Origin: Pyrobaculum sp.
Lineage (GTDB): Archaea; Thermoproteota; Thermoprotei; Thermoproteales; Thermoproteaceae
Direction: 5' to 3'
Length of the DNA: 24,651 nt
NCBI GenBank assembly: GCA_046293555.1
Contig: JBKBOT010000008.1
Coordinates: forward strand, 1 to 24,651
Made by a program: the position numbers and the translations under genes. Below are positions 18,849 through 24,493 of the stretch, one piece after another; position 1 is the stretch's first letter, and every line of letters starts with the position of its first letter. Under the pieces are notes generated by a model, which made no database searches, had not been told where the DNA came from, and saw nothing but the letters and a program-made list of their open reading frames with translations.

Positions 18849-20114
18849 ATGTGTGGCATAGGCGGCGCCTGGGGTTTAGACTCCTCTAGCTTCGTCCAGA
18901 GGATGAGCCAGTGGCTTCTCCACAGAGGCCACGAGGGGGTGGGCTACGCCTATGTGAAAGACGGCGCCGTGGCGATAGGCCTCCCGCCCGGGGATGCAGA
19001 TGGCGCCTTGGTACATACGAGATATAGCACCACAGGCCCCTACGGCTCTGCCCTCCAGCCAGTAGTCGCCAGATATAGAGACTTGGAGGTCGCCGTGGTT
19101 TTTAACGGCACTGTGGTGAACTACAGGAGGCTAGGCGTGGAGTCACCCTCTTTCGACGGGGAGGCTCTAGCCAAGGCCTTAGCTCGAGAGATATGGGAGA
19201 TGGGGCTTGAGCAAGGGGTGATTTCTCTCTTCCAGAAGGTAGTGGGGGCCGCCTCCCTTCTCGCCTTAACGCCTTGGGGCCTTCTGGCCGTGAGAGACAC
19301 GAGGGGGGTTAGACCGCTGGCTGTGAGAAACTTCTATGGCGGCCTGGCGGCAGCCTCAGAAACCGTGGCGTTAGATGGGGGGCAAGAACTGCCGCCAGGC
19401 GTGGCGTTAATATATGGCAAGAAGTACGCCACGTGGAGAATTCACGGCGGCGAGGCCAAGCTATGTGCCTTAGAGTATGTCTATTTTGCACACCGCGCGA
19501 GCGAGCTGGGGGGGAGGCTGGTTTATGAAATGAGAAAACGGCTTGGAGAGACGCTGGCAGAAGAGGAGTCTGTAGATATAGACGTGGTGACCTATGTGCC
19601 CGAAACCGCGAGGACAGCCGCTGAGTCATATGCGGCAAGTATAGGGAAGCCGCTTGTAGAGGCCGTGGTGAAAAGCCGTTTTGCCGGAAGGATATTTATA
19701 ACGCCCCCCCACTCCAGAGCTCCTGAAGACGTCTTTAGGGTGGTGAAGACAGATGTGGCTGGGAGAAAAGTTGCGTTAGTAGACGACTCTTTAATAAGAG
19801 GTACAAACATCAAGACGATTATACGTCTGTTAAGAGAGGCGGGGGCTAGGGAGATACATGTGAGAATTGCCTCGCCCCCCGTGAGGTGGCCTTGTTTCTT
19901 CGGCATGGATTTCCAGACTAGAAAAGAGCTTGCGGCCTACGGGAGGGATGTGGAAGATGTAAGACTTCTCGTCGGCGCGGACACTTTACGCTACCTGTCG
20001 TTAGAGAAATTTATGAAGATCTTAGGTGCCCCCGTCTGTTATGGCTGTTTTACTGGCAGATATCCGATGGAGATAGACGTGACTTGGGCAGAGAGGGAGA
20101 TAGAAAGAGGCTAG
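18849..20114 (+). CDS. purF: Amidophosphoribosyltransferase (canonical, Cys2 present)
   Basis: MCGIGG, HRG, HTRYSTTG, FNG, RDTRGVRPL, CALEYVYF, LVDDSLIRGT, PCFFGMD and CYGCFTGRYP. Confidence 0.97.
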   Translation: MCGIGGAWGLDSSSFVQRMSQWLLHRGHEGVGYAYVKDGAVAIGLPPGDADGALVHTRYSTTGPYGSALQPVVARYRDLEVAVVFNGTVVNYRRLGVESPSFDGEALAKALAREIWEMGLEQGVISLFQKVVGAASLLALTPWGLLAVRDTRGVRPLAVRNFYGGLAAASETVALDGGQELPPGVALIYGKKYATWRIHGGEAKLCALEYVYFAHRASELGGRLVYEMRKRLGETLAEEESVDIDVVTYVPETARTAAESYAASIGKPLVEAVVKSRFAGRIFITPPHSRAPEDVFRVVKTDVAGRKVALVDDSLIRGTNIKTIIRLLREAGAREIHVRIASPPVRWPCFFGMDFQTRKELAAYGRDVEDVRLLVGADTLRYLSLEKFMKILGAPVCYGCFTGRYPMEIDVTWAEREIERG

Positions 20115-20170: not shown

Positions 20171-21709
20171 CTAGAGGGCTTTAAACGTCCCCACCACCAC
20201 TCTCGCCCTTCTGTTTAGTAACAACACTGCGCTTTTAAGCAACGTGTAGATAGACCGTGCTGCCAACAAGCTGCTATGTCCAGAGGCGTAGTTCTCCAGC
20301 TTGATAAACGCCCTCCCCCATGGGTGTTCTACCTCAATTTCATGTATATTAACGCCCGGCTTGCCCCCGCCTTGAAACACCACATGTACCTCACTCCCAG
20401 ACGCCATCTGTAACGCCACAGAGGAGTTTAAATTACGTGGATGCCGCCAGTATAAAACAGAGGCGGGGCCCCCTTCTTTAAAATCTCCGGCCTTGACGAC
20501 CTTATGTATAACTCGGCCTCCAGATGCTGCCAACAAGTCGAGACCTCCCACAGCCCCGCTGGGGAGAAACAACATGCCGTCACCTTTACAGTTCAGTGTG
20601 GCGGCGGCGCCCACAGTGGCGGCTATTAGATGTCTTCCAGCCTCTAGGATCTTACAGCCGTGTTGTAACACCGCCTCAGCTCCCGCGGTCTCAACTACAA
20701 ACTGCGAGTGGGAAATTAACTCCTCTACGTCTTTCACACATTTAGCCCCGAGGGCCTCCGCCTTTTTACATTTCTCTCTATCTATATCGTATACCGCCAC
20801 TAGTCTCATCTCGTTATCTCTAGCTATTAGCTCTGCCACCAGACTGCCTAAAGCTCCATATCCTAAAACCCCCACTCTGGCTTTGACCTCTCTGACTTCC
20901 ATCGAGGCGTCGAGAGCGGGGGCGCTATGTGTAATCTTGCCTATAGAAATCACGTCGACGTAGGGGGCATAGAGGTGGATATTCTCCTCAGTGATGCCCC
21001 CAGAGGCCTCTAATATCACTCTTAACCCCCTCTCGGCTAACAGCTTATGCGCTTTAGCCACTTCTTCAGGGGGCGCGTTGTCTAACATAATGACCTCAAA
21101 CCCAAGCTCTGCGGCTTTAAGAGCCCCCTCGGCTGTAGATACCTCTACCTCTCGTCTGAGCACAAAGGGCGTTGGGGCTTGAGAGAGCCCCTCTATAGAC
21201 GCCACCGCCAAGTGGCTATCTTTATACATCACGGCGTCTGAGAGAGAGCCCCTGTGGGGATCCCCGCCTCCTAACAACACGGCTTTTTTCTCTAGATAGC
21301 GTAAAAACGGGAGAGTTTTTCTCGTGGCGGCTACCCTACATTTGGGGTTTACGGCTTTTACTCTTTCCACAAGTCTTCTCACATATGTGGCTATACCGGA
21401 GGCGTGTATTATCACGTTCAACACTGTCCTCTCTACTTTCACAACCTCTCTGGCGGGGCCTACAAAACAGAGCGCCTCGCCGCCTTTTTGTACATATGTC
21501 CCATCTGCCGCCTGGAAGGAAATCGAGAAGCCCAACAGTTTTAAAAACTCAGCTGCCTCCTCCACTCCGGCGGCTATGCCATCTTGTTTAAAAACCACGC
21601 AGGCCTCCACCTCGACTTTCGGCAGAGCTAACGCCGAGTAGTCTAAAAGAGGGATATCGCGCCTTAACTCTTCTAACAGCTGATAGGCGAAAAGCCTGGC
21701 TTCAATCAT
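20171..21709 (-). CDS. nadC: Fusion of quinolinate phosphoribosyltransferase (NadC, N-terminal ~275 aa) and an L-aspartate dehydrogenase-like domain (NadX, C-terminal ~235 aa)
   Basis: NadC part: ATRKT, GGGDPHR, KDSH, EVEV, IMLDN, LEASGGI, THSAPALD. NadX part: Rossmann VGVLGYGALG, VVETAG, LPSGAVGGLD, PRNLN, NIHEI, SLLAARS. Confidence 0.9.
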   Translation of the reverse strand: MIEARLFAYQLLEELRRDIPLLDYSALALPKVEVEACVVFKQDGIAAGVEEAAEFLKLLGFSISFQAADGTYVQKGGEALCFVGPAREVVKVERTVLNVIIHASGIATYVRRLVERVKAVNPKCRVAATRKTLPFLRYLEKKAVLLGGGDPHRGSLSDAVMYKDSHLAVASIEGLSQAPTPFVLRREVEVSTAEGALKAAELGFEVIMLDNAPPEEVAKAHKLLAERGLRVILEASGGITEENIHLYAPYVDVISIGKITHSAPALDASMEVREVKARVGVLGYGALGSLVAELIARDNEMRLVAVYDIDREKCKKAEALGAKCVKDVEELISHSQFVVETAGAEAVLQHGCKILEAGRHLIAATVGAAATLNCKGDGMLFLPSGAVGGLDLLAASGGRVIHKVVKAGDFKEGGPASVLYWRHPRNLNSSVALQMASGSEVHVVFQGGGKPGVNIHEIEVEHPWGRAFIKLENYASGHSSLLAARSIYTLLKSAVLLLNRRARVVVGTFKAL

Positions 21710-22626
21710 GTAAACATCTTCTCAATGGCTGCCCTAGCCCTGTCGGCCACGTCTTTTGGGACAGTTACTACATACACCTCATCTCTAAGGGAGCGGTATA
21801 CTTTTTCCAACGTGGTGAGCTTCATGTACTCACATATGGCGTCTTCTGCAGCCGGTATAAACTCCTTGTCTGGAGCCTCTTTGGCCATCCTGTATATTAT
21901 CCCGGCCTCTGTGGCTACAACAAACCGGCGTGAGGGAGACGTTTTGACGTATTTCACCATGCCCTCTGTAGAGAGGAACTTGGGCTCTACCCCGAGCTTG
22001 GGCAGTTCTAACAGACAGGCGGTGCCGCAGCCGCACTCCGGGTGTATTAACACCTCGGCGCCTCTATAGAGCTTTACTTTTGTCAAAATGATTGGGGCGG
22101 AGAGCTTGGCGTGGACGTGACACTCCCCATCCCACACCTCTATCTCTCTTCCCAACTTCGCCGCGATGTATCTCCCCAGGTATTTATCTGGCAGAAATAA
22201 CACCGGCTTGTCTCTAGGGAGAGACTCCACAATCTTGAGACAGTTGGCTGAAGTACATACATAATCCGCCAACGCCTTCACCTCGGCGTATGTGTTTATA
22301 TACGCCACCACAACGCCGTTTGGATTACGTTCTTTCCACTTCCTCACCTTTTCCACATCTACAGAGGCGGCTAGACTACATCCCGCCTCTAGGTCTGGAA
22401 TAACCACCTTCTTGTCTGGATTCAAGATGGCGGCAGTTTCCGCCATGAAGTAAACGCCGGCAAACACCACAAGTCTGGCCTTGGCGTTCTTGGCGGCAAG
22501 AGAGAGGTTGAGAGAATCGCCTATAAAGTCGGCAACTTCTTGTACCTCTGGCCGTTGGTAGTTATGGGCAAGTATCACCGCCCCCTTCTCCCTCTTTAGC
22601 CTTAACACCTCTTCAATCACATCCAA
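21706..22626 (-). CDS. nadA: Quinolinate synthase
   Basis: ILAHNYQ, GDSL, GVYFMAETA, AGCSLA, YINT, CTSAN, CHVH, HPEC and CEYMK. Real start is TTG 22626 or GTG 22620, not 22998. ATGA overlap with nadC. Confidence 0.96.
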   Translation of the reverse strand: MDVIEEVLRLKREKGAVILAHNYQRPEVQEVADFIGDSLNLSLAAKNAKARLVVFAGVYFMAETAAILNPDKKVVIPDLEAGCSLAASVDVEKVRKWKERNPNGVVVAYINTYAEVKALADYVCTSANCLKIVESLPRDKPVLFLPDKYLGRYIAAKLGREIEVWDGECHVHAKLSAPIILTKVKLYRGAEVLIHPECGCGTACLLELPKLGVEPKFLSTEGMVKYVKTSPSRRFVVATEAGIIYRMAKEAPDKEFIPAAEDAICEYMKLTTLEKVYRSLRDEVYVVTVPKDVADRARAAIEKMFT

Positions 22627-22732
22627 CAGACTGCTACAATTAAAAAGTATGTATTTTACATTTTTTGCCTCTTCAAGATGGGGCCGGTGGCCAACTTGGC
22701 ACATAATGACATTTATATGACATATAGTGACT

Positions 22733-23611
22733 ATGTGTCTCAAAGAGGTGGAAGTAGAGGAGGAATATAGGGAGTGGTTTGAAAAAGCCGGCATTACTGT
22801 GAGAAAAGGCGCGTTAGTCAGGGCGGTGTATGGAAGAGATAGAGATATATTAAAAGCGCTACGGCAAGAGGAGAGGCCCGTCTTGGGGGTAGCCCCGCCG
22901 GGAGTTGACGTAAAGCTTGCAGCTACAGACTTGAAGATGCTCCCCGCTTTGAAAAACTGCGTGAAGATAAGAGTGCCGAGACTCACGGCTGAAAACACAT
23001 ACGGGAGGGTTTATGCGGTAAACGAGGTGGCCCTGTTGGCAAGCGCGCCGGGGGTCTTTGTGAAATATTCGATATATGTAGATGGGGAACATCTCTATAA
23101 CGACATGGGCGACGGCGTGTTGGTAGCCACGCCGCTTGGCTCCACGGCATACGCCATGTCTGCAGGAGGGCCGAAAATCAAGTTAGAGGCCCCAGTGGTC
23201 GAGATAGTGCCGGTAAACTCCGCCTTACGGAGGCCGCCATATGTCCTCCCCCTTAACTCCACGGTGGAGATTGTAGACGCCAAAAGCGTTGAGGAGCTTA
23301 TGGTTATAGGCGACGGCGTGGAGAAGGCCAGATATGTCTCCCCCACCCAGATATATGTAGACTCCTTTGCGACGCTTATCCTCTCCCTAAAAAAAGCCGC
23401 CAGGTCGACAGAGGGCCTCCCCCCAAGCGCCCTGTTGGTAAAAAGGCTTCTCGAGGAGAGGGGGCCCCTCACCGTGGAGGAGGTCGTGAGGTTGAGTGGG
23501 CTCAAGCCTAGAACAGCCAGACATGCCCTACAGCGGCTGAGAGAGCTAAATATGGTACAAGCCGCAATAGACCCCACAAACCCCCGTAGGAAGTTATACC
23601 ACCTCACCTAG
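22733..23611 (+). CDS. NAD kinase-like domain fused to a C-terminal winged helix-turn-helix; putative transcriptional regulator
   Basis: NADK motifs RPVLGV, AVNEV and GDGVLVATPLGSTAYAMSAGGP, with GGDGT replaced by GRDRD. C-terminus LPPSALLVKRLLEERGPLTVEEVVRLSGLKPRTARHALQRLRELNMV...NPRRKLY. Start uncertain (22727/22733/22748). Confidence 0.85.
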   Translation: MCLKEVEVEEEYREWFEKAGITVRKGALVRAVYGRDRDILKALRQEERPVLGVAPPGVDVKLAATDLKMLPALKNCVKIRVPRLTAENTYGRVYAVNEVALLASAPGVFVKYSIYVDGEHLYNDMGDGVLVATPLGSTAYAMSAGGPKIKLEAPVVEIVPVNSALRRPPYVLPLNSTVEIVDAKSVEELMVIGDGVEKARYVSPTQIYVDSFATLILSLKKAARSTEGLPPSALLVKRLLEERGPLTVEEVVRLSGLKPRTARHALQRLRELNMVQAAIDPTNPRRKLYHLT

Positions 23612-23647
23612 TAATAAAGTTTAAATTATTAACAAAAACATGTGTTA

Positions 23648-23926
23648 ATGTACATAAGGATTGTTATTGATAGAGACTTGTGTATAGCGTGTGGCGCATG
23701 TATTACGTACTGCCCCCACCAGGCGCTTATTGCCGGCGACGACGGAAAGCCGGTGCTCCTATGGGATAGATGTAGAGACGACTTCGCCTGTCTCTACGTC
23801 TGTCCCGTAAATGCCATAAGCCCTTGTGGCCGGCGGAGGGGGAGGGGGCGGTGGTTTTATTTCAGTAAGAACCTCGAGGGGGAGGAGCTACAGGAATTTG
23901 TGGAGTGGAAGTCACTCTGTCTGTAA
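23648..23926 (+). CDS. Dicluster ferredoxin paralogue (CxxCxxCxxxCP plus CxxDxxCxxxCP)
   Basis: CIACGACITYCP and CRDDFACLYVCP. TATA TTTAAATT at 23620 starts 28 nt before ATG 23648. Confidence 0.9.
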   Translation: MYIRIVIDRDLCIACGACITYCPHQALIAGDDGKPVLLWDRCRDDFACLYVCPVNAISPCGRRRGRGRWFYFSKNLEGEELQEFVEWKSLCL

Positions 23927-24166: not shown

Positions 24167-24493
24167 ATGGCCCAAGAACTTCTCCAATATCAAAGGGTGT
24201 TGATAGACCAGGACACTTGTATCAGCTGTGGCGCATGTGTGGCAGCCTGTCCCTACCAAGCCCTTGAGCTAGACGAAAACGGGAAGTCTAGACTCATCTG
24301 GGAGATGTGTAAAGACGACTTCTCCTGTGTGGCCGTCTGCCCCGTGAAATGTATCTATAAACTCAGCGAGGCCCCCGCGGAGTTTAAAGCCAAGAAGGGC
24401 TGGTACAGATTTAGCAAAACGCTATCGCCAGAGGAGAAGAGCGCTTTTGAGGAGTGGAGAGCTAAATACGGCGTTACGGCAGACGCCGTCTAA
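24167..24493 (+). CDS. Dicluster (probably 7Fe-type) ferredoxin with C-terminal extension
   Basis: CISCGACVAACP and CKDDFSCVAVCP. TATA TTTTATAT at 24139 starts 28 nt upstream. Confidence 0.93.
   Translation: MAQELLQYQRVLIDQDTCISCGACVAACPYQALELDENGKSRLIWEMCKDDFSCVAVCPVKCIYKLSEAPAEFKAKKGWYRFSKTLSPEEKSAFEEWRAKYGVTADAV

What the first reader, a model, noticed from the sequence alone, without database searches (positions are those of the whole stretch)
22733..23611. Degenerate NAD kinase fused to a winged HTH, divergent from the NAD biosynthesis operon: candidate new NAD(P)-sensing transcription factor
Seen: the NAD-binding NADK motifs (NE; GDG...TPxGSTAYxxSAGGP) are intact. The glycine-rich GGDGT loop reads GRDRD (22832-22846; Asp kept, both flanking Gly changed to Arg), and the GxLGFL motif after PVLGV is lost. 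The last ~65 aa (from ~23414) form a clear wHTH. The gene shares a ~105-bp divergent promoter region with nadA-nadC/X. Established: the characterised NAD regulators NadR (NMNAT), NrtR (Nudix), NiaR (3H) and Rex (Rossmann) join a DNA-binding domain to a ligand-binding or enzyme-derived fold. I do not know of a characterised one built on the NAD-kinase fold. Inference: this is an enzyme-turned-sensor giving NAD/NADP feedback control of de novo NAD synthesis.
Basis: partly seen in the sequence, partly recalled or inferred. Interest (0 to 1): 0.88.

Follow-up and report, generated by a model that had tools for sequence, protein, structure and literature searches.

The report
NAD-kinase-derived regulator of NAD genes
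This archaeal gene encodes an NAD kinase look-alike that has lost its catalytic loop and gained a DNA-binding tail, and comparative genomics indicates it belongs to a widespread, apparently undescribed family of switches controlling NAD synthesis and niacin-uptake genes.

Summary
ORF 22733-23611 (+) has a complete NAD-kinase fold with a C-terminal winged helix (AF2 pLDDT 94). The catalytic GGDGT loop reads GRDRD, and the dinucleotide-binding motifs are intact. It is divergent from nadA-nadC/nadX.

The genome also has a separate GGDGT-bearing NAD kinase.

The protein belongs to a monophyletic NADK+wHTH family found in Thermoproteota, Asgard and DPANN records. In this family the GGDGT and GxxGFL motifs are relaxed, while the NAD-site motifs and the wHTH stay conserved.

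All 13 full-length copies in the genus lie beside either nadA/nadC-nadX (7) or a NiaP-like niacin transporter (6).

A palindrome, GGCAA-N3-TTGCC, marks regulator-target intergenic regions in several lineages. It lies 70-171 bp upstream of nadA in 8 of 9 fusion-bearing genomes where nadA is not adjacent to the regulator. It was found in 0 of 4 genomes that have nadA but no fusion.

Best reading: a pseudo-kinase pyridine-nucleotide sensor that regulates NAD synthesis and niacin uptake.

The ligand, the sign of regulation and DNA binding are untested. The window's own operator sites are degenerate. Six literature searches found no description of the family.

The parts
22733..23611 (+). NADK-fold + winged-helix ORF (292 aa; alternative GTG start at 22727)
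   Evidence: Orthologues begin MC..., which supports ATG 22733.
22832..22846 (+). Degenerate catalytic loop GRDRD (canonical GGDGT)
   Evidence: Aligned to GGDGT of 1suw. Family-wide loop census.
23021..23329 (+). NAD_kinase_C core with intact NE / DG / TPxGSTAY / SAGGP motifs
23423..23608 (+). C-terminal winged helix-turn-helix (three helices and a two-strand wing)
   Evidence: AF2 secondary structure, aa 231-291. Sub-threshold HTH Pfam hits here; above-threshold hits in orthologue P0011.
22621..22732 (.). Divergent promoter region between nadA and the regulator gene
22640..22647 (-). TATA-like box of nadA (CTTTTTAA on the minus strand), 19 nt before the GTG start
   Evidence: Read from the sequence. 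Aligned with the TATA box of L004. Inference.
22657..22669 (.). Candidate operator box A, TACATTTTTTGCC, 9 nt upstream of the nadA TATA box
   Evidence: Lies in the most conserved block of the 3-genome footprint, which reads GACAAATTTTGCC in L004. Scores 11.0 bits on the out-group matrix; 0.010 such sites are expected in 112 bp. A weak site.
22698..22710 (.). Candidate operator GGCACATAATGAC over the regulator's own TATA-like box
   Evidence: Together with the next part, 2 of only 5 GNCA-N5-TGNC matches in the 24.65-kb window. The pattern was chosen post hoc.
22719..22731 (.). Candidate operator GACATATAGTGAC, immediately before the start codon
   Evidence: 21 bp from the previous box.
21706..22620 (-). 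nadA (quinolinate synthase), probable target gene
   Evidence: The GTG 22620 start was chosen by comparison with L004.
20171..21709 (-). nadC-nadX fusion ORF (quinolinate phosphoribosyltransferase + aspartate dehydrogenase); overlaps nadA by 4 bp, so probably the same operon

Best explanation
The ORF encodes a transcription factor whose sensor module is a former NAD kinase.

The dinucleotide-binding C-domain is kept under selection. The phosphoryl-donor loop (GGDGT to GRDRD) and the GxxGFL motif have decayed, so the protein most likely binds a pyridine nucleotide (NAD(P)(H) or a close precursor) without phosphorylating it.

Through its C-terminal winged helix, probably as a dimer as in NAD kinases, it would bind GNCA-N5-TGNC-type palindromes in the 112-bp region shared with nadA. 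The family consensus for these sites is GGCAA-N3-TTGCC. Binding would control nadA-nadC/nadX and its own gene according to the cofactor pool.

In relatives without de novo synthesis, the same regulator controls a NiaP-like niacin transporter or an ABC uptake system instead.

Shown here: the fold, the motif pattern, the paralogue, synteny, and co-occurrence of the palindrome with the gene family.

Inferred: DNA binding, ligand identity, loss of catalysis, and the sign of regulation. I favour end-product repression, by analogy with NadR and NiaR.
For: 1. Fold and motifs.

2. Motif census. In 176 fusion proteins the loop is GGDG[TS] in only 12. In 53 non-fusion hits it is GGDG[TS] in 47. G35, G37, T38, G57 and G60 are 83-92% conserved in the non-fusion hits. 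In fusions G35 is 28% and G57/G60 are 41% each, and the commonest residues at 37 and 38 are R (49%) and D (45%). N97, D127, G128, T133, P134, G136, S137, T138, Y140, S143, G145, G146, D194 and G195 are at least 94% conserved in fusions. The wHTH is highly conserved, with R260 invariant in the 47-sequence alignment and R260/T261 98% and R263 93% in the 176 fusions.

3. A separate NADK with GGDGT exists in this genome. In the genus, 18 of 18 genomes have NAD_kinase_C. The four without a full fusion have exactly one hit, the ~250-aa enzyme. Eleven fusion-bearing genomes have two.

4. Synteny. All 13 full-length copies in the genus are adjacent to either nad genes (3 divergent from nadA, 3 upstream in the same direction, 1 convergent with nadC-nadX) or an orthologous MFS transporter (6 divergent). 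The nadA-nadC(-nadX) divergon also occurs in 15 of 50 further Thermoproteota loci covering 6 genus-level groups. It occurs in two Thermofilaceae records and one 'Thermoproteota Kor2' record, and nadC lies beside the gene in an Iainarchaeum record.

5. Transporter identity. NadA was not found in G007, G015, G321, G355 or G337. In four of them the divergent neighbour is an MFS or a Peripla_BP_6 ABC binding protein; the MFS beside the G015 copy rests on tblastn only. The MFS is 44-45% identical to Bacillus proteins named putative niacin/nicotinamide transporter NaiP, and 51% identical to one named niacin transporter NiaP. Its best NCBIfam matches are aromatic-acid/H+ symporters and PcaK. These are the relatives the NiaR paper reports for NiaP (passages).

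6. Cis element. GGCAATAATTGCC, or a copy with at most 1 mismatch, lies within 300 bp upstream of the regulator start in 6 of 31 genus-level groups. Background is 2.9e-5 per bp, so 0.009 are expected per locus. This includes loci whose neighbour is a transporter rather than nadA (L120, L123, L145).

7. Where nadA is not directly adjacent to the regulator, a site with at most 1 mismatch lies within 350 bp upstream of nadA in 8 of 9 fusion-bearing genomes. Seven of these are at 70-120 bp. The same search gives 0 of 4 in fusion-less genomes that have nadA.

8. In G238 only 2 GGCAA-N3-TTGCC sites exist in 1.7 Mb, and one is 78 bp before the nadA ORF. Across its family, 26 of 61 genomes have an exact GGCAATNATTGCC, while the reversed control pattern has 0 in all 61. 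In 18 of those 26 the site is 70-110 bp upstream of nadA.

9. The NADK modules of the fusions form one clade, with support 0.998 against 43 canonical enzymes.
Against: 1. No experiment. DNA binding, ligand and activity are all inferred.

2. In this protein the HTH Pfam hits are below their cut-offs.

3. The window's own sites are weak. Box A has only one good half-site, at 11.0 bits. The out-group matrix finds 158 sites of at least 11 bits in the genome. Of its 26 best sites, 25 are inside ORFs and the one intergenic site lies before cytochrome oxidase genes. The GNCA-N5-TGNC pattern was relaxed post hoc, and window-wide it is no more frequent than chance (5 found against 6.4 expected).

4. 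The operator usually lies upstream of the target's TATA box. This is 9-15 nt upstream in Pyrobaculum, g30 and L121, and about 45 nt in G238. That position fits activation at least as well as repression.

5. Many family members show no NAD link. This applies to 35 of the 50 loci, among them g40, which lies next to ribosomal protein L15e and prefoldin, with NadA not found in G106. It also applies to the g3 and f2 loci and to the Asgard L033 and Vulcanisaeta loci within 6 kb.

6. G082 has nadA without a site. 35 of 61 f13 genomes lack an exact site, and 8 of the 26 exact sites are elsewhere, 7 of them inside ORFs.

7. In G003 (95% complete) only the fusion's NAD_kinase_C was found, so a sole-NADK case is not excluded there.

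8. The catalytic Asp of the loop is kept in 94% of fusions, and one subclade keeps GGDG[TS]. Residual or full kinase activity in parts of the family is therefore possible.
Confidence: 0.75

Rival explanations
1. Bifunctional enzyme-regulator. The protein is still an active NAD kinase that also binds DNA, like BirA, NadR or RbkR, so kinase turnover itself is the signal.
For: The loop Asp is kept (94% of fusions), as are all NAD-site motifs. A subclade of 15-16 fusions retains GGDG[TS]. In G003 no second NADK was found. The RbkR paper lists BirA, NadR and PutA as precedents for enzyme-regulators (passages).
Against: Both loop glycines are Arg here, and the GxxGFL glycines are lost. The score against every NCBIfam NADK equivalog is far below cut-off (68 bits against 326). 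A canonical GGDGT paralogue is present in this genome and in 11 fusion-bearing congeners. From recall, not from a call: mutagenesis of the GGDG motif in M. tuberculosis NADK abolished activity.
Confidence: 0.13
2. Co-regulated passenger. The gene sits with nadA and niaP because it is itself an NAD-metabolism gene, the palindrome is the operator of some other factor, and the winged helix has a non-regulatory role.
For: NAD kinase genes belong to NAD metabolism, so clustering alone does not prove a regulatory role. No binding data exist. The homodimer question is open.
Against: The wHTH is the best-conserved fusion-specific part of the family. The palindrome tracks the presence of the fusion, 8 of 9 against 0 of 4. 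It also lies upstream of the fusion gene where the neighbour is a transporter. No other regulator gene is consistently present in these loci.
Confidence: 0.07
3. Redox or energy sensor rather than NAD-pool sensor. The domain reads NADH/NAD+, NADPH/NADP+ or ATP/polyphosphate, and the regulon is broader than NAD synthesis (Rex-like logic).
For: From recall, not from a call: canonical NADKs are inhibited by NADH and NADPH. Many family members are not next to NAD genes. Fusion-specific conserved residues R83, D124 and R198 suggest a modified ligand site.
Against: The only recurrent neighbours and palindrome-linked genes found are nadA/nadC/nadX and niacin-type transporters. No respiratory or fermentation genes recur. 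The single site before cytochrome oxidase genes in G000 was not followed up in relatives.
Confidence: 0.05

Closest known systems
Canonical NAD kinase (e.g. A. fulgidus Afnk, PDB 1suw/1z0s)
   Same: The same two-domain fold and the same NE, DG, TPxGSTAY and SAGGP motifs.
   Different: The GGDGT loop reads GRDRD, the GxxGFL glycines are lost, about 65 aa of wHTH are added, and the score is far below the NADK equivalog cut-offs. The fusion clade is separate from canonical enzymes.
NadR (enterobacterial NAD repressor: HTH + NMN adenylyltransferase + ribosylnicotinamide kinase)
   Same: An NAD-pathway enzyme fold fused to a DNA-binding domain. Controls de novo NAD genes and, per the NiaR paper, a NiaP orthologue in Proteus (passages).
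   Different: Unrelated folds and the opposite domain order (N-terminal HTH in NadR, from recall). NadR is bacterial and retains enzyme activities.
NrtR (Nudix-related) and NiaR (3H domain) regulators of bacterial NAD metabolism
   Same: The same regulon logic: nadABC in prototrophs and niaP or other uptake genes in auxotrophs, often self-regulated and divergently transcribed (abstracts and passages). NrtR is also a degenerate enzyme fold used as a sensor (abstract).
   Different: No sequence or fold relation. The Pfam scan of this protein shows only NAD_kinase_C plus weak HTH hits. Those families were described in bacteria. In the NrtR paper the word 'archaea' occurs only in the reference list.
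RbkR (archaeal riboflavin kinase-regulator); ThiR (archaeal ThiN-domain regulator, recalled only)
   Same: Archaeal vitamin or cofactor regulators built from a pathway enzyme plus a wHTH, found by comparative genomics (RbkR: abstract and passages).
   Different: A different enzyme fold and a different cofactor. RbkR is reported as bifunctional, whereas most members here have a degenerate catalytic loop.
Rex (redox-sensing repressor)
   Same: A wHTH plus a pyridine-nucleotide-binding domain.
   Different: Rex uses a Rossmann fold with an N-terminal wHTH and controls respiration and fermentation genes (recalled). Here the sensor is an NADK fold and the targets are NAD synthesis and uptake genes.

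Membership tests
NAD kinase (EC 2.7.1.23; PF01513 + PF20143) | C-terminal NAD_kinase_C domain with NE, DG, TPxGSTAY and SAGGP motifs | tested here: met
   PF20143 scores 58.9 bits against a cut-off of 23.7. The motif columns are conserved.
NAD kinase (EC 2.7.1.23; PF01513 + PF20143) | N-terminal domain with GGDGT loop and GxxGFL motif | tested here: not met
   No PF01513 hit. The loop reads GRDRD and aligns to GGDGT of 1suw. G57 and G60 are lost. The fold of the N-domain is nevertheless present.
NAD kinase (EC 2.7.1.23; PF01513 + PF20143) | Score above the NCBIfam NADK equivalog cut-offs | tested here: not met
   Best score is 68.2 bits against a cut-off of 326.
NAD kinase (EC 2.7.1.23; PF01513 + PF20143) | Catalyses NAD phosphorylation | not testable with these tools
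   Needs an enzyme assay.
Winged-helix (MarR/ArsR-like) transcription factors | Three-helix bundle plus a beta-hairpin wing | tested here: met
   AF2 gives H231-243, H248-255, H259-271, E275-279 and E287-291 at pLDDT above 90.
Winged-helix (MarR/ArsR-like) transcription factors | Pfam HTH model above the gathering score | tested here: inconclusive
   Below cut-off in this protein (17.2/22, 16.4/22). Above cut-off in orthologues: P0011 HTH_20 38.4/27 and HTH_5 32.9/22; P0116 MarR_2 32.3/27.
Winged-helix (MarR/ArsR-like) transcription factors | Sequence-specific DNA binding | not testable with these tools
   Only indirect evidence: a palindrome that co-occurs with the gene family.
NadR / NrtR / NiaR / Rex (known NAD or redox regulators) | NMNAT/RNK, Nudix, 3H or Rossmann effector domain | tested here: not met
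   The Pfam and NCBIfam scans list none of these domains for this protein.
NiaP niacin transporters (for the MFS neighbour in relatives) | PF00083 MFS related to PcaK/BenK aromatic-acid symporters and similar to characterised NiaP | tested here: met
   PF00083 and PF07690 hits. TIGR00895 and PcaK are the best NCBIfam matches. 44-45% identity to Bacillus proteins named NaiP/NiaP by their sources. The criteria come from passages of PMC2330245. Transport itself was not tested.

The most novel reading that the evidence does not exclude
The NADK+wHTH family is the main, ancient NAD(P)-homeostasis regulator of TACK, Asgard and some DPANN archaea, including ammonia-oxidising Nitrososphaeria.

It began as a bifunctional kinase-repressor, and a GGDG[TS] subclade survives in that state. 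It then repeatedly became a pseudo-kinase.

The Arg/Lys now found in the former phosphate-binding loop (G-x-D-[RK]-x) and the fusion-specific R83 and R198 would read the 2'-phosphate. The protein would then sense NADP(H) rather than NAD, and would tie de novo synthesis and niacin uptake to the phosphorylated pool.
Probability: 0.3. Interest if true: 0.85.

Novelty: new variant of a known kind. Interest (0 to 1): 0.75.

Why it matters
My six searches turned up no transcriptional regulator of NAD metabolism described for Archaea, nor any regulator in any domain built on the NAD-kinase fold.

If confirmed, the family would add a fourth, independent invention of an NAD regulon regulator beside NadR, NrtR and NiaR. 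It would be another clear case of an enzyme turned into a sensor.

It would also give a ready operator motif and regulon for archaea, including ecologically important ammonia oxidisers.

It would correct inconsistent annotations. Sources name members NAD+ kinase, sugar kinase, ATP-NAD/AcoX kinase, ArsR or MarR regulator.

It would allow niacin auxotrophy or prototrophy, and candidate niacin transporters, to be predicted in uncultured archaea.

Tried and rejected
- Own-genome regulon scan. I scanned the whole of G000 with a matrix built from out-group palindromes. Of the 26 best sites, 25 are inside ORFs. The one intergenic site precedes COX2-COX1-SCO1 and was not pursued. No regulon beyond nadA could be called in this genome.

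- NiaP in the own genome. None was found (best MFS hit 29% identity).

- Other palindrome sites. The second GGCAA-N3-TTGCC site of G238 and sites in G385, G106 and G339 were examined. They lie next to or inside genes with no recognisable NAD link (a cyclophilin, unnamed ORFs). I treat them as chance.

- Neighbours in Nitrososphaeria-type loci. A PfkB kinase lies upstream and CTP synthase downstream. No NAD link was inferred.

- First genome-contig scan attempt with the 47-sequence alignment failed. The repeat with a narrower alignment mostly returned canonical NAD kinases, because one pattern was the GSTAY motif. Only 7 of the 80 loci were fusions.

- Homodimer prediction: no verdict (score 0.26, mark 0.42). 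Not used either way.

- Public sequencing runs: no RNA holder listed. The only full holder may be the source metagenome.

- Literature. Six full-text searches gave no paper on an NADK-wHTH regulator. I saw only listings and abstracts, plus 'find' passages of PMC5397151, PMC6675116, PMC2330245 and PMC2330246. Supplements were not opened. Supplementary tables of the NiaR and NrtR papers could list archaeal NiaP homologues that I did not see. ThiR, the M. tuberculosis GGDG mutagenesis and the Rex and NadR architectures are recalled, not read here.

- Rejected reading: that 22689-22701 (a 5-1-5 palindrome) or 22649-22661 (ATGTA-N3-TACAT) are the operator. Neither is conserved in L004 or L005.
Full report
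**1. What is in the window**

The ORF 22733-23611 (+) encodes 292 aa. An in-frame GTG lies at 22727, but orthologues start MC..., which favours the ATG.

- Pfam finds NAD_kinase_C at aa 99-201 (E 5.6e-16).
- Pfam finds no N-terminal PF01513 hit.
- Pfam finds only sub-threshold HTH hits in the last 60 aa.
- NCBIfam NADK equivalogs score at most 68 bits against cut-offs of 211-493.

The closest solved sequence is A. fulgidus NAD kinase (1suw/1z0s, E 1e-13). That alignment places GRDRD (aa 34-38 of the 292-aa form; nt 22832-22846 by my arithmetic from the ATG) on the enzyme's GGDGT.

AlphaFold2 on a 47-sequence family alignment gives pLDDT 94 and pTM 0.76. The model shows both NADK domains followed by a three-helix, two-strand winged helix at aa 231-291. 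All top Foldseek PDB hits are NAD kinases.

On the other strand lie nadA (21706-22620) and a single ORF that fuses nadC with nadX (20171-21709).

**2. It is not the cell's NAD kinase**

The genome (96% complete) has a second NAD_kinase_C gene on contig C3. Its loop is an intact GGDGT, and it matches NADK models over both domains.

In the genus, 18 of 18 genomes have the domain.

- The four without a full-length fusion have exactly one copy, the ~250-aa enzyme.
- Eleven fusion-bearing genomes have two copies.
- G003, G010 and G014 (95%, 61% and 74% complete) show one copy.

**3. It is one member of a large family**

Two searches of very large protein sets found NADK+wHTH proteins of 290-360 aa. 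Their sources label them Pyrobaculum, Vulcanisaeta, Thermoproteales, Nitrososphaerales, Geothermarchaeota, Njord-, Loki- and Thorarchaeota. The names given vary: NAD+ kinase, sugar kinase, ATP-NAD/AcoX kinase, ArsR or MarR regulator.

A profile search of 401 Thermoproteota genomes found about 145 full-length copies in many families. This includes all 56 genomes of family f13, where a canonical NADK is present as well.

The motif pattern differs sharply between fusions and canonical enzymes.

| Feature | 176 fusion proteins | 53 non-fusion hits |
|---|---|---|
| Loop reads GGDG[TS] | 12 | 47 |
| Other common loops | GGDGD 15, GRDRD 22, otherwise mostly G-x-D-[RK]-x | - |
| GxxGFL glycines (G57, G60) | 41% | 91% |

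The NAD-site motifs are at least 94% conserved in fusions, as are the loop Gly34 (100%) and Asp36 (94%). The wHTH is also conserved (R260 invariant in A1; R260/T261 98% and R263 93% in the 176 fusions), along with fusion-specific residues R83, Y112, D124, N162, S163 and R198.

A FastTree of the NADK modules separates 43 canonical enzymes from all 176 fusions plus 10 probable fragments, with support 0.998. One subclade of about 19 tips keeps GGDG[TS]. The window's protein lies in a 36-tip GRDRD/GTDRD clade.

This is the signature of a ligand-binding module that no longer needs to catalyse.

**4. Gene neighbourhood**

In the genus, all 13 full-length copies sit beside one of two things.

- NAD de novo genes: 3 divergent from nadA-nadC/nadX (including the window), 3 directly upstream in the same direction, and 1 convergent with nadC-nadX.
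- An orthologous MFS transporter: 6, all divergent.

Elsewhere, the same divergon with nadA-nadC(-nadX) occurs in 15 of 50 further loci from six genus-level groups. It also occurs in two Thermofilaceae records and a 'Thermoproteota Kor2' record. nadC lies beside the gene in an Iainarchaeum record.

NadA was not found in several fusion-bearing genomes (G007, G015, G019, G321, G355, G337, G106). In four of these the divergent neighbour is an MFS transporter or a Peripla_BP_6 ABC binding protein followed by further ORFs that I did not identify.

The MFS has the features the NiaR paper gives for the niacin permease NiaP. It is a PF00083 protein whose nearest relatives are PcaK-type aromatic-acid symporters (passages). 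It is 44-45% identical to Bacillus proteins named NaiP/NiaP by their sources.

The window's genome has nadA but no NiaP orthologue.

'De novo genes in prototrophs, niacin uptake in auxotrophs' is the regulon pattern described for NiaR and NrtR.

**5. A cis element that tracks the family**

The regulator-nadA spacers of distant lineages share a palindrome. It reads GGCAATAATTGCC, perfect in L121.

With at most one mismatch, it lies within 300 bp upstream of the regulator's start in 6 of 31 genus-level groups. Background is 11 hits in 375 kb, so 0.009 are expected per locus. Two of the six groups suggested the motif in the first place. The other four are independent, and they include loci whose neighbour is a transporter (L120, L123, L145).

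The test that matters most uses genomes where nadA is not directly adjacent to the regulator.

| Genome set | Site (≤1 mismatch) within 350 bp upstream of nadA |
|---|---|
| Fusion-bearing, nadA not adjacent | 8 of 9 |
| Has nadA, no fusion | 0 of 4 |

Among the 8, four sites are perfect. Seven lie 70-120 bp upstream. One lies at 171 bp, inside the end of the preceding ORF.

In G238 only two GGCAA-N3-TTGCC sites exist in 1.7 Mb, and one lies 78 bp before nadA. Across that family, 26 of 61 genomes carry an exact GGCAATNATTGCC, while the reversed control has none in all 61. In 18 of the 26 the site is the one in front of nadA. Seven of the other eight are inside ORFs.

Kin are not independent, so these counts overstate the statistics. 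The direction is nevertheless clear.

**6. The window's own promoter**

Here the signal is weaker, and I say so plainly.

In the three-genome footprint, the best conserved block lies 9 nt upstream of the nadA TATA-like box (22640-22647). It reads GACAAATTTTGCC in L004 but TACATTTTTTGCC (22657-22669) in the window. On the out-group matrix that scores 11.0 bits, with 0.010 such sites expected in 112 bp.

Relaxing the palindrome to GNCA-N5-TGNC gives only 5 matches in the whole window, which is what chance predicts (6.4 expected). Two of them lie 21 bp apart at 22698-22710 and 22719-22731, over the regulator's own TATA-like box and just before its ATG. That pattern was chosen after looking, so I give it modest weight.

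The niaP-side and nadA-side promoters within the genus share the same layout: a TATA box, then TGTATA-like bases, then G[TA]CAAA..TT[GT].

**7. Mechanism proposed**

A dimeric pseudo-kinase binds a pyridine nucleotide in the conserved C-domain site. This changes the affinity of its two winged helices for palindromic operators in the shared promoter. The result is control of nadA-nadC/nadX and of its own gene.

End-product repression is the economical guess, by analogy with NadR and NiaR, and sites over the regulator's own core promoter fit autorepression. However, the target-side operator lies upstream of the TATA box, so activation, or interference with TFB at the BRE, cannot be decided here.

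Dimerisation is assumed from NAD kinases in general. The complex prediction gave no verdict and is not used.

**8. Comparison with known systems, and novelty**

It works like NadR, NrtR, NiaR and the archaeal RbkR: a pathway-derived or ligand-binding fold joined to a DNA-binding domain, controlling synthesis and uptake of the same cofactor.

It is a member of none of them, because Pfam and NCBIfam show no NMNAT, Nudix, 3H or Rossmann domain. It fails the catalytic-loop and score criteria for NAD kinase while keeping the fold.

Six full-text searches found no description of such a regulator. Subscription-only papers and supplements were not searchable.

I rate it a new variant of a known kind, and of high interest to people working on cofactor regulation and archaeal transcription. 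The family includes ammonia-oxidising and Asgard lineages and comes with a testable operator.

**9. Limits**

Nothing here is experimental. Several lineages show no NAD link at all: g40, g3, the f2 loci, and the Asgard and Vulcanisaeta loci within 6 kb. One fusion-bearing genome has nadA without a site. One congener may lack a second NADK. A GGDG[TS] subclade may still be enzymatically active.

Noticed in passing
window 20171-21709 (-): nadC (quinolinate phosphoribosyltransferase) and nadX (aspartate dehydrogenase) are fused in one 512-aa ORF that overlaps nadA by 4 bp. In Thermofilaceae and Kor2 loci the two halves align as adjacent segments that may be separate genes.
   Followed up: partly
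window 23642-23926 and 24167-24493 (+): Two paralogous small 4Fe-4S dicluster ferredoxin-like ORFs (43% identical) lie directly downstream of the regulator gene. Their relation to the regulator is unknown.
   Followed up: no
L032 (G008:C1:828717-828941): One congener keeps only a fragment of the regulator (aa 3-76, 55% identity) next to a nadX-like segment. It has a single NAD_kinase_C gene, so this is an apparent remnant of the regulator locus.
   Followed up: partly
G000:C4:45881-45893 (L166): The only intergenic top-scoring palindrome in the window's genome (TGCAATATTTGCC) lies about 70 bp upstream of a COX2-COX1-SCO1 cluster. It may be chance or a second target.
   Followed up: partly
L127 583-1449, L143 7069-7977: In two Nitrososphaeria-type families, a PfkB-family kinase gene lies immediately upstream of the fusion gene on the same strand. 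It is conserved, but I cannot explain the link.
   Followed up: no
L120 2653-3957, L156 4542-5855: In family f38, which lacks nadA in the genomes tested, the regulator is divergent from a Peripla_BP_6 binding protein (followed in L156 by three further ORFs that I did not identify), with the palindrome in the spacer in L120. This is a candidate new uptake system for an NAD precursor.
   Followed up: partly
window 18849-20114 (+): A purF-like ORF (glutamine amidotransferase + phosphoribosyltransferase) lies next to the nad operon.
   Followed up: no
L113 (G106) and other g40 loci: In genus g40 the fusion gene sits between ribosomal protein L15e and prefoldin genes. NadA was not found, and there is no palindrome upstream. 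The regulator's role there is unexplained.
   Followed up: partly
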